A stretch of 21,497 nt of DNA from Octopus sinensis (lineage: Eukaryota), in contig NW_021823698.1 in the NCBI RefSeq assembly GCF_006345805.1, forward strand, positions 1 to 21,497. The letters run 5' to 3'. The notes below the pieces were generated by a model, which was given only the letters and a program-made list of their open reading frames with translations, was not told the DNA's origin and made no database searches. Below are positions 4,291-18,913 of this stretch, piece by piece (the first letter of the stretch is position 1; each line of letters starts with the position of its first letter). The position numbers and the translations under genes were made by a program.

Positions 4291-5256
4291 TTGGGTTGCT
4301 TGTTCAGTCACGTGACATGTCTGTTTTAATATATTAATGTTTGTTCACCCGCCCACCCCCCGCTTGATAACCGATGTTGGTTTGTTTATATCTCCGTAAT
4401 GTAGCAGTTCGGTAAAAGACCGGTGGAAGTATCAGACCGAGAAGAAAATACTTTTAAATCAATGAATTAGTGGTTGAGTTCACCTCAGATACGTTGTGTT
4501 GCTTGTTCAATAACTTCACATGTCTGCTTATTAGTGTTTGTTCGCCCCACCGCTTGATAACCGGTGTTGGTTTGTTTACATCTCCGTAATGTAGCAGTTC
4601 GGCAAAAGACCGTAAAAGCATCAGAACGAGAAGAAAATATTATTTTTAATAATAAACTAGTGGTTGAGTTCACCTCAGATACGTTGTGTTGCTTGTTCAA
4701 TAACTTCACATGTCTGCTTATTAATGTTTGTTCACCCCACCGCTTGATAACCGGTGTTGGTTTGTTTACATCTCCGTAATGTAGCAGTTCGGCAAAAGAG
4801 CGATAGACTTATCAGACCGAGAAGAAAATATTTTTTTTAACAATAAATTAGTGGCTGAGTTCACCTCAGATACGTTGTGTTGTTTGTTCAATAACTTCAC
4901 ATATCTGCTTATTAAAGTTTGTCCACTCCAGAGTTTGACAACCGGTGTTGGCTTGCTTATGTCTCAGTAACGTAGCAGTTCGGCAAAAACGATTGAGAGA
5001 AGTATCAAACAGAAGAAAAAAATTTTATCAGTGAACTAGTGGCTGAGTTCACTTCAGACACGTTGGGTTGCTTGTTCAGTTACGTGACATATCTGCTAAA
5101 TAAATTAGTGTTTGATCACTCCACCGCTTGACATCCGCTGTTGGTCTGTTTATGTCTGTGTAACGTAGCAGTTCAACAAAACAGACTGACAGAATAAGCT
5201 CCAGGCCGAAACAAAAATAAACAGAAATTTAGTGGCTGAGTTCACCTCATACACGT
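4291..5256 (+). repeat. Tandem array of five ~190-bp units derived from the SINE A tail
   Basis: cgcttgataaccg-type anchor at 4361, 4551, 4741, ~4931 and ~5125; each unit also carries tagtggYtgagttcacctcagatacg. Confidence 0.92.
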
Positions 5257-5523: not shown

Positions 5524-5942
5524 TATTTCTTTACTACCCACAAGGGGCTACACACAGAGGGGACAAACAAGGACAGACAAACGGGTTAAGTCGATTACAT
5601 CGACCCCAGTGCGTAACTGGTACTTAATTTATCGAGCCCGAAAGGATGAAAGGCAAAGTCGACCTCGGCGGAATTTGAACTCAGAACGTAACGGCAGACG
5701 AAATACGTATTTCTTTATTACCCACAAGGGGCTAAACATAGAGGAGACAAACATGGACAGACATAGGTATTAAGTCGATTATATCGACCCCAGTGCGTAA
5801 CTGGTACTTAATTTATCGACCCCGAAAGGATGAAAGACAAAGTCGACCTCGGCGGAATTTGAACTCAGAACGTAACGGCAGACGAAATACGGCTAAGCAT
5901 TTCGCCCGGCGTGCTAACGTTTCTGCCAGCTCGCCGCCTTAT
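5524..5942 (-). mobile_element. SINE family B (Nin-domain-like): one head plus two 184-bp body units, 17-bp TSD
   Basis: Head aaggcggcgagctggcagaa; body gccgaggtcgactttgcctttcatcctttcggggtcgat. TSD acacacatttatatata at 5507-5523 and 5943-5959. Confidence 0.9.
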
Positions 5943-7002: not shown

Positions 7003-7021
7003 TGTATATATATATTATACA

Positions 7022-7104
<83 letters not shown>
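7003..7104. repeat. (TA)n microsatellite
   Basis: Seen directly. Confidence 0.95.
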
Positions 7105-7109
<5 letters not shown>

Positions 7110-7287
7110 TAATCCAAACAGAAAACACAGAAAAATAGAGAAAAAAACACAGCAACGCGAGGACGTGGAACAATTAAAGTATTATTGACGCTCAGGAAAG
7201 AAGGGAAGGAGGGTTTAACGTTTCGAGCGGAGCTCTTCGTCGGAAACAAGGAGAAGGAAAGATCCCAAGAAGGGAAGACAGAGGAAA
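7105..7287 (-). mobile_element. Short Penelope-like pseudo-LTR or retrozyme-like element in (TA)n
   Basis: Contains a minimal hammerhead motif; (TA)n on both sides; second partial copy at 8251-8357. Confidence 0.7.
7213..7247 (-). ncRNA. Minimal type I hammerhead ribozyme-like motif (U4C core variant)
   Basis: Minus strand: GUUU-CCGACGA-A-GAGC(UCC)GCUC-GAAAC-GUU^AAAC; stem I GUUU/AAAC; palindromic ACGU in place of stem III. Confidence 0.65.
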
Positions 7288-7297
7288 TATATATATA

Positions 7298-7668
7298 TCT
7301 CTCTCTATATAAACGGCAGTTTGTCTGTGCGTTTTCTGTGTGTCTGTTTTCTCGTACCCTCACCCTGACCACGGCTTTCAACCGATTCTGATGAAACTTG
7401 ACACACACATAGCCCAATGTCATAATTCAAAACTAACGCAGCGAAAATTTTGAAAAGTTCCCCCAGTTCTGAAAAAAATCGATAAATTCGACATGGGGTC
7501 AAGAATCAGAAACCCAAACCACAGACCGTCTAGGGGACGCAACTCCACCTTTTTTAACTCTGAAAAAAAATTTACCATCATTTTTTTTCTATTTTTTGGC
7601 TATAACTCTAAAAATGCTTTATAGTTATTTCCCTTACAAACCTGAGCAACGCCGGGCGATACTGCTAG
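7298..7668 (+). mobile_element. Complete non-autonomous Helitron (~371 bp)
   Basis: 5' A|TC(TCTCTCTATATAAAC), internal GTCT repeats, imperfect 3' hairpin cctgagcaacgccggg about 8 nt before terminal CTAG|T; no TSD. Confidence 0.85.
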
Positions 7669-7775
7669 TACATGCATATAAACATGTCTATATATCGATG
7701 TAGTCATACTATGTGCAAATACGAACCATATTGGCACATACATGCATGTCCATACATGTATATACACATACACGA

Positions 7776-7968
7776 TAGGTGTATGTGTGGTAACATAGCT
7801 GTGTGGTAAGAAGCTTGCTTCATAACTACATGGTTCCGGGTTCAGTCCTACTGTGTGGGACCTTGGGCAAGTGTCTTATACTATAGTCCTTCGTGCCGCG
7901 CAAAGCCTTGTGAGTGGATTTGGTAGGCGGAAGGTTAAAAAAGCCCGTCGTATATATAAGTATATATA

Positions 7969-7999
<31 letters not shown>

Positions 8000-8124
8000 T
8001 GTGTGTTCGTGTTTATACCGCGTGACAACCGGTGTTGGACTGCTTACGTCCGCGTAACTTAGAGTTTCGGCAAAACTAATAAGTATTAGGCTTTAAAAAA
8101 TAAGTCCTGGGTGGTAGATTTGTT
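7776..8124 (+). mobile_element. SINE family A (head, body and most of tail)
   Basis: agctgtgtggtaagaagcttgctt...gggttcagtcc...ccttgggcaagtgtctt...aagccttgtgagtggatttggt. Confidence 0.88.
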
Positions 8125-8198
8125 ATAAATATATATATATATATATGTGTGGTGTGTGGTGTGTGTGTGTGAATGTATGTATGAATATAATATAATAT

Positions 8199-8238
<40 letters not shown>

Positions 8239-8250
8239 ATATATATATAT

Positions 8251-8357
8251 AAACCCTCCTTCTTTCCTTCTTTCTTGAGCATCAATAATACTATACTTGT
8301 TCCACGTCCTCGCGTTGTTGTGTTTTCTCTTTGTGTTTTCATGTTTGGATTAACTTT
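8251..8357 (+). mobile_element. 5'-truncated copy of the 7105-7287 element, opposite orientation, in (TA)n
   Basis: aaaccctccttc...ttgttccacgtcctcgcgttg...tgtttggattaacttt is the reverse-complement homologue of 7105-7216. Confidence 0.9.
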
Positions 8358-11624: not shown

Positions 11625-11883
11625 ATAGAATGGTTGTATACAGTCAATCTAACACGAACGTGACAGTAGGGGGGTACACCACCGCTGTATAGCCCTAGGA
11701 AACATCGAAGCCTCCTGATGGCTTTGACACATTTTTCCTGTGTCCTTCGTAAATGTATATAAGGACACAGGAAAAATGTATCAAAGCCATCAGGAGGCTT
11801 CGATGTTTCCTAGGGCTATACAGCGGTGGTGTAGCCCCCTACTGTCACGTTTGTGTTAGATTGACAGTATACAACCATTCTAT
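11625..11883. repeat. Fold-back inverted repeat, 123-bp arms, 13-nt spacer
   Basis: 11625-11747 versus 11761-11883; 4 mismatches counted by eye. Confidence 0.97.
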
Positions 11884-16669: not shown

Positions 16670-17088
16670 AAAGGCGGCGAGCTGGCAGAAACGTTAGCAC
16701 GCCGGGCGAAATGCTTAGCGGCATTTCGTCTGCCGCTACGTTCTGAGTTCAAATTCCGCCGAGGTCGACTTTGCCTTTCATCCTTTCGGGGTCGATTAAA
16801 ATACAAGTTACGCTATGCACTCGATCGATGTAATCGACTTAATCCGTTTGTCTGTCCTTGTTTGTCCTCTCTGTGTTTGGCCCCTTGTGGGTAGTAAAGA
16901 AATAGGTATTTCGTCTGCCGTTAAGTTCTGAGTTCAAATTCCGCCGAGGTCCACTTTGCTTTTCATCCTTTCGGGGTCGATTAAATAAGTACCAGTTACG
17001 CACTGGGGTCGATGTAATTGACTTAATCCGTTTGTCTGTCCTTGTTTGTCCCCTCTGTGTGTAGCCCGTTGTGGGCTGTAAAGAAATA
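16670..17088 (+). mobile_element. SINE family B (Nin-domain-like): head plus two body units, 15-bp TSD
   Basis: TSD ggtactcaaccgggg at 16655-16669 and 17089-17103; unit junction aaagaaatag|gtatttcgtctgccg at about 16905. Confidence 0.92.
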
Positions 17089-17178
17089 GGTACTCAACCG
17101 GGGTCCGTACCACCCTTGGAGGTCCATTAAAAATTTTGTTGTTAAATTTCAAGTGCACTGAATTGATTATATGTCTAC

Positions 17179-17364: not shown

Positions 17365-17992
17365 CTGAGTCTCCCTCAAGACGACGTTAAGGGTACGTGT
17401 CTCTGTGGAATGCTCAGCCACTTTCACGCTAATTTCACGTGCAGGCTGTCATTCCTGAATCTCCCTGAATACTACGTTAAGTGTACACGTGTCTGTGGAG
17501 TACTCAGCCACTTGCACTTTAATTTCACTTGCAGACCGTTATCCCTAAATCTCCCTCAAAACTACTTTAAGGGTACACGTACCTGTGGAATGCTCAGCCA
17601 CTTTCACGCTAATTTCACGTGCAGGCTGTCGTTCCTGAATCTCCCTGAGTACTACGTTAAGTGTACACGTGTCTGAGGTGTACTCAGCCACCTGCACATT
17701 AATTTCACTAGCAAACCGTTATCCCTGAATCTCACAACTACGTTAAGTGTACACGTGTCTGTGGAGTACTCTGCCACTTGCATATTAATTTCACTAGCAC
17801 ACTGTTATCCCTGAATCCCCCCCACAAATATGTTAAGGGTACACGTGTCTGTGGAGTACTCAGCCAGTTGCACAATAATTTCACTAGCAGACCGTTATCC
17901 CTGTATCTCCCACAGAACTACGTTAAGGGTACACGTGTCTGTGGAGTACTCAGCCGTTTTGACGTTAACCTGACGAGCAGATGACTCCGTTG
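17365..17992 (+). repeat. Tandem array of seven ~90-bp units derived from the SINE C tail
   Basis: Unit starts at 17365, 17455, 17545, 17635, 17725, 17811 and 17901; single-copy equivalent at about 18138-18230. Confidence 0.95.
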
Positions 17993-18335: not shown

Positions 18336-18913
18336 CTTTCTACTATAGGTACAAGGCCGAAAATTTGGGAGGGGGGAATTACTCGATTACATCGAGCCCA
18401 GTGCGAAACTAGTACATAATTTATCGATCCCGAAAGGATGAAAGGCTAAGTGGACCTCGGTGGCTTTGAACTCAGAACATGAAGACTGACGAAATACCTA
18501 TTTCTTTACTACCCAAAAGGGGCTAAACACAGAAGGGACAAACAAGGACAGACAAACGGATTAAGTCGATTATATCGACCCCAGTGCGTAACTGGTACTT
18601 ATTTAATCGACCCCGAAAGGATGAAAGGCAAAGTGGACCTCGGTGGAATTTGAACTCAACGTAACGGCAGACGAAATACCTATTTCTTTACTACCCACAA
18701 GGGGTTAAACACAGAAGGGACAAACAAGGACAGACAAACGGATTAAGTCGATTATATCGACCCCAGTGCGTAACTGGTACTTATTTAATCGTCCCCGAAA
18801 GGATGAAAGACGAAGTCGACCTCGGCGGAATTTGAACTCAGAACGTAACGGCAGACGAAATACGGCTACGCATTTCGCCCGGCGTGCTAACGTTTCTGCC
18901 AGCTCGCCGCCTT
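18336..18913 (-). mobile_element. SINE family B: head plus three body units, the last with a different tail
   Basis: Junctions at 18499 and 18681 (182-bp period); probable short TSD cttaat(a/g)atc at 18326-18335 and 18911-18920. Confidence 0.9.

What the first reader, a model, noticed from the sequence alone, without database searches (positions are those of the whole stretch)
7105..8357. Element copy begins exactly at the predicted hammerhead cleavage site of its sister copy
Seen: the minus-strand element 7105-7287 contains GUUU-CCGACGA-A-GAGC(UCC)GCUC-GAAAC-GUU^AAACCCUCC. The homologous plus-strand copy at 8251-8357 starts with AAACCCTCC directly after (TA)n and shares the same 3' end (ggattaacttt). 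Known: minimal type I hammerheads with palindromic stem III occur in Penelope-like pseudo-LTRs and non-LTR retrozymes and cut after NUH. Inference: the 8251 copy is a reverse-transcribed 3' cleavage product, a genomic footprint suggesting this non-canonical (U4C, extra A, GUU) ribozyme cuts in vivo. Caveats: one example only, and the first A could belong to the TA run.
Basis: partly seen in the sequence, partly recalled or inferred. Interest (0 to 1): 0.8.

Follow-up and report, generated by a model that had tools for sequence, protein, structure and literature searches.

The report
Faint ribozyme footprint in Penelope repeats
Both stretches are ordinary truncated end-repeats of a very common Penelope-like retrotransposon that carries a predicted self-cutting RNA motif; the exact start at the predicted cut is rare, but truncated copies begin several times more often just after that cut than just before it, which may be a faint trace of cutting in living cells.

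Summary
7105-7287 (-) and 8251-8357 (+) are solo pseudo-LTR copies of a Neptune/Nematis-type Penelope-like element (roughly 35-40 thousand copies, estimated; RT plus GIY-YIG ORF found upstream and downstream of the same repeat) with a minimal type I hammerhead. The single example proves little: 27 copies start like 8251 against 4921 that read through (0.55%); 46 of 100 unselected copies start about 105 nt upstream and none has this junction; there is no spike at the cut. The two copies belong to different subfamilies, and 8251 most likely came from a canonical CUGA core, not U4C. However, a census of TA-joined 5' ends shows a step: 3 ends in the 10 nt before the cut, 58 in the 17 nt after, with the edge within 1-2 nt of the scissile bond (3- to 10-fold, depending on the census). 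About 3% of copies are in excess there. Run-off from cleaved RNA is my best reading (0.45); a reverse-transcriptase stall at a hairpin ending at the same place cannot be excluded. No RNA-end or cleavage data were obtainable.

The parts
7105..7287 (-). Copy A: solo pseudo-LTR of a Penelope-like element, 5'-truncated at about -71 from the predicted cut, CCGA (U4C) subfamily, TA runs on both sides
   Evidence: 87-89% to both pseudo-LTRs of the near-full-length natural copy L432
7213..7247 (-). Minimal type I hammerhead motif: 4-bp stem I, CCGACGA core, extra A, 4-bp stem II with 3-nt loop, GAAA, palindromic ACGU stem III without loop, U17; predicted cut between 7217 and 7216
   Evidence: sequence; stem I G-C/C-G exchange in a second family; monomer folds weakly and into a non-hammerhead hairpin, -7.2 kcal/mol, z -0.33
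8251..8357 (+). Copy B: solo pseudo-LTR fragment whose 5' junction lies at -1, +1 or +2 relative to the predicted cut; most likely from a CUGA subfamily
8185..8251 (.). (TA)n run 5' of copy B; overlaps the element by TA microhomology
7005..7105 (.). (TA)n run 3' of copy A; overlaps the element's own internal TATATA, the inferred priming site

Best explanation
Both stretches are truncated pseudo-LTR copies of a high-copy Penelope-like retrotransposon, likely made by reverse transcription primed on (TA)n at an internal TATATA about 105 nt after the hammerhead and running back until the RNA ended. Shown: the repeat flanks an RT + GIY-YIG ORF; all examined solo copies end at or near that internal TATATA; most start at -112..-98; over 90% of unselected copies read through the predicted cut. 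Inferred: -110 is the transcript start of the pseudo-LTR promoter, so uncut RNA is the normal template. Inferred, and the contested step: a small share of transcripts is cut by the hammerhead (probably as a dimer or with protein help), the reverse transcriptase runs off the new 5' end, and joining to the TA target by microhomology trims 0-20 nt, giving a plateau of 5' junctions that begins at the scissile bond and holds about 3% of copies. Copy B would be one member of that plateau; taken alone it is about as likely to be a background truncation or stall product.
For: Element. Step: of 119 TA-adjacent junctions on contigs C1-C3 (all such places listed), 105 lie at +1..+17, 5 at -1, 8 at -20..-2, 1 is not a truncation; pure-TA junctions 3 in 10 nt before vs 58 in 17 nt after, p=4e-9; change point at -2 or -1 with posterior about 0.9 or more, -1 being the cut itself under T microhomology. 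Same-sequence control: AAAC at -7..-4 holds 1 junction, AAAC at -1..+4 holds 25. Composition control: the pyrimidine tract upstream of the hammerhead has 0.05%/nt against 0.19%/nt downstream (hand counts 46 and 75, at-risk counts, computed). Only 5 of 119 had hammerhead-like sequence upstream and those inspected were neighbouring copies or other repeats, not displaced halves; 1 of 27 exact copies had one, a complete neighbour. Precedent: R2 5' junctions reflect ribozyme cut position with microhomology joining (PMC3774820, passages); PAc hammerhead cleaves when its protein is present (PMC11167929).
Against: No spike at +1. The step is smaller, about 3-fold, in the census anchored at +2 (12 places at -1..+3 vs 12 at -13..-2, hand count of 37 unique places; overlaps one search's data). 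In the unselected 100, all junction types: 6 independent ends in +1..+17, 3 in -31..-2, 6 in -62..-32, 14 in -97..-63, which also fits a valley over the hammerhead rather than a step. Copies in the plateau are not enriched for the canonical CUGA subfamilies (25 of 96 vs 28 of 82, p=0.25), although U4C is reported to lower activity (PMC3088659, passage). An internal TA site 3' of the cut collects 9-10 of 39 junctions in its own window (hand count), so microhomology alone makes local peaks. Predicted folds put the end of a paired region at -8..-1, next to the cut. For PAc, uncut RNA is the dominant substrate and no RNA-seq reads ended at the cut; metazoan minimal hammerheads are nearly inactive in vitro.
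Confidence: 0.45

Rival explanations
1. The element and mechanism are the same, but the RNA is never cut: the reverse transcriptase tends to stop in the unpaired pyrimidine stretch just 3' of a folded region (the GACG/CGUU hairpin or the pairing of the stem II 3' strand with a downstream GAGC), and once through it rarely stops inside. The edge falls at the predicted cut because the hammerhead's helices end there.
For: Minimum-energy folds of copy A and of natural copies place pairs up to -1 or to -5..-8 and leave +1..+20 unpaired. No dependence of the plateau on CUGA vs CCGA core. No spike. PAc precedent that cleavage is dispensable.
Against: The hairpin is weak (-6.5 to -7.2 kcal/mol, no better than shuffles). 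The folds differ among subfamilies while the edge is sharp at -2/-1. Density at +1..+4, which is paired in the hairpin fold, equals that at +5..+16.
Confidence: 0.28
2. No special site: junction density falls with distance from the priming site and is modulated by base composition and TA/T microhomology; the purine- and GC-rich hammerhead is simply a poor place to join to (TA)n, and copy B is a chance truncation at a TA dinucleotide.
For: 0.55% of copies; an unrelated internal TA site collects a quarter of junctions in its window; unselected sample shows rates of the same order in +1..+17, -62..-32 and -97..-63.
Against: Identical AAAC 8 nt apart gives 25 vs 1; the upstream pyrimidine tract is 3.7-fold lower; the stretch further 3' (about +20..+50) appears lower, not higher, than +1..+17 (rough: 27 pure junctions over 31 nt with an at-risk number only estimated).
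Confidence: 0.2
3. One reading: copies that start exactly at the cut form a distinct, peaked class of reverse-transcribed 3' cleavage products of the U4C ribozyme.
For: 27 exact copies exist, 19 of the 21 classifiable ones from CCGA subfamilies; a few start at +1 after a base other than T.
Against: No peak above +4..+16; 0 of 100 unselected copies; 0 of the 29 closest relatives of B; 0 of 14 ORF-attached 5' pseudo-LTRs; B itself is likely CUGA-derived.
Confidence: 0.07

Closest known systems
Minimal type I hammerheads in pseudo-LTRs of metazoan Penelope-like elements (Cervera and de la Pena 2014, PMC4209133; read parts 1-2 of 4)
   Same: In the pseudo-LTR; 4-bp stem I; unpaired nucleotide between 9 and 10.1; G10.1-C11.1; palindromic 15.2-16.2 without loop; thousands of dispersed single copies.
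   Different: Stem II is 4 bp, not the 7-8 bp given for the Schistosoma families; 60 of the first 100 listed copies carry C at position 4 (hand count); that text does not analyse 5' junctions against the cut site.
Poseidon element PAc of Anolis (Frangieh et al. 2024, PMC11167929; read parts 1-2 of 4)
   Same: Reverse transcription starts inside the RNA about 100 nt 3' of the hammerhead cut, targets AT-rich DNA, and uses mostly uncut RNA.
   Different: Here the start site is a native TATATA that matches the (TA)n target, the protein has a CxxxxCxxC linker, and a genomic step at the cut is seen; that paper found no RNA-seq reads ending at the cut.
Neptune / Nematis clades of EN+ Penelope-like elements (as described in PMC8557442; passages)
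   Same: RT, CX2-5CxxC linker, C-terminal GIY-YIG with two Cys and two His, pseudo-LTRs, (TA)n bias.
   Different: Clade not resolved by a tree here; 3' UTR is about 3.3 kb of CA-rich simple sequence.
R2 elements with 5' HDV-like ribozymes (PMC3774820; abstract and passages)
   Same: Works like it if the best explanation holds: ribozyme cut position leaves a mark in genomic 5' junctions through run-off and microhomology joining.
   Different: In R2 the cut defines the 5' end of full-length copies; here it accounts for a few percent at most and the main end lies 105 nt upstream.
Animal non-LTR retrozymes (bioRxiv 10.64898/2026.07.22.740005; read part 1 of 5)
   Same: Type I hammerhead in a short non-coding repeat related to PLE pseudo-LTRs.
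   Different: Not a tandem array of hammerhead units; dispersed solo copies with an autonomous ORF-bearing parent.

Membership tests
EN+ Penelope-like element | Single ORF with PLE-type RT (DKG, Q..G.AMG, YIDD motifs) | tested here: met
   Motifs in broken ORF pieces of L147, L148, L429, L431, L432; Pfam RVT_1 E=2.5e-4, below the curated cutoff
EN+ Penelope-like element | C-terminal GIY-YIG endonuclease | tested here: met
   PF01541 E=0.0043 and 0.0018, both below cutoff; Atlas best clusters 0.96 carrying GIY-YIG in 13-56% of members
EN+ Penelope-like element | Direct pseudo-LTRs on both sides of the ORF, partial tandems and inverted truncated copies | tested here: met
   L432 has the repeat before and twice after the ORF; 14 repeat-to-ORF junctions; inverted pairs in L279 and L272
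Neptune/Nematis clades | CX2-5CxxC linker before the endonuclease and (TA)n insertion bias | tested here: met
   Linker read in L147, L148, L429; TA flanks in most copies
Neptune/Nematis clades | Phylogenetic placement of the RT | not tested
   No reference set of PLE proteins was fetched
PLE minimal type I hammerhead | Core CUGANGA ... GAAA and NUH | tested here: inconclusive
   Met in CUGA subfamilies (40 of 100); copy A and 60 of 100 have U4C, a known natural variant of lower activity; triplet GUU, GUC in one subfamily
PLE minimal type I hammerhead | Extra nucleotide between 9 and 10.1, G10.1-C11.1, palindromic 15.2-16.2, stem I of 4-5 bp | tested here: met
   Sequence; 145 distinct motif instances with these traits in the loci held, with a G-C to C-G exchange in stem I of a second family
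PLE minimal type I hammerhead | Self-cleavage as dimer or with protein help | not testable with these tools
   Monomer and homodimer minimum-energy folds are not the active form; bench test needed
Rfam hammerhead families | Covariance-model match | tested here: not met
   No hammerhead among 129 matches at E<=1 in the window
Non-LTR retrozyme | Tandem array with a complete hammerhead in at least two consecutive non-coding units | tested here: not met
   Window copies are solo and inverted relative to each other; the family is dispersed and ORF-linked; short tandems of two occur in a few loci

The most novel reading that the evidence does not exclude
The genome records in vivo cleavage by a minimal Penelope hammerhead: about 3% of copies (on the order of a thousand) descend from cut RNA and form a plateau of 5' ends starting at the scissile bond, in U4C as well as canonical subfamilies. 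5'-junction censuses of solo pseudo-LTRs would then be a general, purely genomic read-out of ribozyme activity and of transcript starts for PLE families in any animal genome.
Probability: 0.45. Interest if true: 0.62.

Novelty: new member of a known kind. Interest (0 to 1): 0.4.

Why it matters
Whether the minimal hammerheads of animal Penelope-like elements cut in cells is open: they barely cut in vitro, are dispensable for insertion in vitro and left no read ends in the one RNA-seq check. This family shows that uncut RNA is the normal template in vivo (over 90% read-through), and offers a statistical trace of a minor cut fraction that can be tested across many genomes without bench work. The element and the motif themselves are ordinary members of known kinds.

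Tried and rejected
Rfam scan: no hammerhead. Closest relatives of copy B as a separate short family starting at the cut: rejected, 29 of 29 keep the hammerhead. Full-length elements starting at the cut as in R2: rejected, 14 of 14 extend upstream, two of them with internal deletions over or next to the cut. A spike at +1: rejected. TA runs inserted later into intact copies as the source of the plateau: not supported. Dependence on CUGA vs U4C: not seen (classifier right in 100 of 112 leave-one-out tests; 15 of the selected and 13 of the unselected copies were dropped for lack of a readable 3' part). RNA ends: no RNA holder listed, only contigs with RNA status guessed; laying four of them gave no start or end information; no evidence either way. 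Pfam at default threshold found nothing in five ORF pieces. A dimer energy with the intermolecular stem III was not computed (one search scored stems I and II only). The paper on dimer cleavage by small PLE hammerheads (PMC5785218) was not held, so variants tested there, possibly U4C, were not seen; supplements of the cited papers were not opened. Earlier findings of this scan: none in this genome.

Full report
Observation. The window is G000:C169 of a 2.72-Gb assembly rich in simple repeats. Copy A (7105-7287, minus) holds a complete minimal type I hammerhead motif with the predicted cut between 7217 and 7216; copy B (8251-8357, plus) begins with the stem I 3' strand after a TA run and ends like A. 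They are 83.5% identical. Positions below are counted from the cut (+1 = first base after it). Since -1 is T and +1 is A, B's junction can be at -1, +1 or +2. Rfam has no hammerhead hit here and the monomer folds weakly into a different hairpin, as expected for a motif without a stem III loop.

What the element is. The repeat is very common: 10,731 and 13,242 exact matches to two 16-nt anchors; 9 of 30 and 11 of 32 sampled copies hold both, which puts the family at roughly 35-40 thousand copies (estimate). Long copies run upstream through about 3.3 kb of CA-rich sequence into an ORF with PLE-type RT motifs, a CxxxxCxxC linker and a GIY-YIG domain (Pfam scores below curated cutoffs). The same repeat stands before the ORF, where its invariant 3' end continues through a native TATATA into the 5' region, and L432 has repeat-ORF-repeat-repeat. 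So A and B are solo pseudo-LTRs of a Neptune/Nematis-type Penelope-like element (linker and TA bias as in PMC8557442, passages; no tree made). The shared 3' end is most simply an internal priming site annealed to (TA)n, like the internal initiation shown for PAc (PMC11167929); this step is inferred.

The hammerhead. The extra A, G10.1-C11.1, palindromic 15.2-16.2 and short stem I are the standard traits of PLE minimal hammerheads (PMC4209133). U4C is not decay of one copy: 60 of the first 100 listed copies carry it (hand count); it is a known natural variant with lower in vitro activity (PMC3088659, passage). A second family in the genome exchanges the first stem I pair from G-C to C-G. Copy B lacks the core, but 8 of its 10 nearest intact relatives have CUGA, whereas 10 of 10 of A's have CCGA (B's relatives were partly fetched by likeness to B), so B says nothing about the U4C form.

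Is the start at the cut a peak? No. 27 copies have B's exact junction (all look like real truncated copies) against 4921 read-through copies: 0.55%. All 29 closest relatives of B keep the hammerhead. In the first 100 places, unselected for their 5' end, 16 extend beyond -131, 4 end at -130..-113, 46 at -112..-98, 14 at -97..-63, 9 at -62..-32 (6 after removing one internal deletion and a duplicated divergent pair), 4 at -31..-2 (3 after removing another family), 7 at +1..+19 (6 independent), and none has B's junction (one row labelled +1 is a +3 junction misassigned by a subfamily reference). All 14 ORF-attached 5' repeats start upstream of the hammerhead. Uncut RNA is therefore the normal template. 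The -110 edge sits on a TTCA-NN-ATGTG motif kept across subfamilies; I read it as the transcript start of the pseudo-LTR promoter (PLE internal promoter: PMC2377424, passages; initiator likeness recalled; untested).

Are the 5' ends even around the cut? Also no. Two gap patterns listed TA-adjacent junctions within about 31 nt of an anchor at +17/+20 (271 and 438 rows, first 100 of each shown). I fetched all 119 unique places on contigs C1-C3, 21.9% of the assembly, and aligned them to natural intact copies: 105 at +1..+17, 5 at -1, 8 at -20..-2, 1 not a truncation (positions beyond +12 are blurred by subfamily length differences). Because impure TA runs are caught more easily near the anchor, the test uses pure runs: 3 ends in -11..-2, 14 in -1..+3, 44 in +4..+16; step p=4e-9, spike p=0.88. 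The change point is -2 or -1 (posterior 0.34+0.56 for pure runs, 0.47+0.53 for all). The AAAC of the GAAAC box (-7..-4) has 1 junction, the AAAC after the cut (-1..+4) 25. The pyrimidine tract upstream of the hammerhead has 0.05%/nt, the one downstream 0.19%/nt (46 and 75 places by hand count). The excess is about 2.4% of copies in that junction class and about 3% in all (estimate).

Against over-reading. With an anchor at +2 the step is only about 3-fold (12 places over -1..+3, 12 over -13..-2, 13 over -28..-14, of 37 unique places by hand; same contigs, not independent). An internal TA site 3' of the cut gathers 9-10 of 39 junctions in its window (hand count), so microhomology makes local peaks. 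The unselected 100 fit a valley over the hammerhead as well as a step (small numbers). Plateau copies are not enriched for CUGA subfamilies (25 of 96 vs 28 of 82, p=0.25). Predicted folds of six natural copies leave +1..+20 largely unpaired and end a paired region between -8 and +4, so a stall in front of structure predicts an edge at nearly the same place. Published work finds these ribozymes nearly inactive in vitro, protein-assisted and dispensable for insertion, with no RNA reads ending at the cut. Public runs gave only contigs, so RNA ends could not be seen.

Mechanism and odds. Shown: identity of the element, common 3' end, dominant -110 start, read-through, step at the cut. Inferred: internal priming, transcript start at -110, and the cause of the step. 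For copy B alone the chance that it came from cut RNA is about one in three.

Novelty. Element and motif are new members of known kinds. I found no paper analysing PLE 5' junctions against the hammerhead cut or describing this family in searches (listings only, except the papers named above); the library lacks most subscription papers, PMC5785218 was not held, and no supplements were read. Overall interest 0.4; 0.62 if the step proves to be cleavage.

Noticed in passing
family-wide, -112..-98 from the cut (e.g. L200, L211, L402): 46 of 100 unselected copies start in a 15-nt zone with a sharp 5' edge at a TTCA-NN-ATGTG motif kept across subfamilies; possibly the transcript start of the pseudo-LTR promoter.
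   Followed up: partly
window 7189-7196 (-) and family-wide, about +17..+30: A GAGC-containing motif 3' of the cut is kept in both hammerhead families and can pair with the 3' strand of stem II in place of the 5' strand; a possible built-in off-switch for the ribozyme.
   Followed up: partly
L009:873, L044:1242, L064 (-), L154 (-): A second repeat family has a hammerhead-like motif with U at core position 6 in all instances seen, a 4-nt loop II and a compensatory stem I pair; a third has a 12-nt loop II (L117, L222).
   Followed up: no
L354, L365, L367, L370, L371: A subfamily with a GUC triplet, U4C core and a U-U mismatch in stem I; the best natural control for the TA-microhomology problem.
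   Followed up: no
L147:5200-8300, L148: The element's 3' UTR is about 3.3 kb of CA/TACA-rich simple sequence, so this retroelement spreads microsatellite-like DNA.
   Followed up: no
window 5524-5891, 16723-17092, 18383-18863: Dispersed repeat of about 184 nt in short tandems, 88-93% alike, on both strands; SINE-like.
   Followed up: no
window 4354-5181 and 17365-17955: Tandem arrays with periods of about 190 nt (4.3 copies) and 90 nt (6.6 copies).
   Followed up: no
window 11625-11883: Near-perfect inverted repeat, 123-nt arms, 97% complementary, 13-nt spacer.
   Followed up: no
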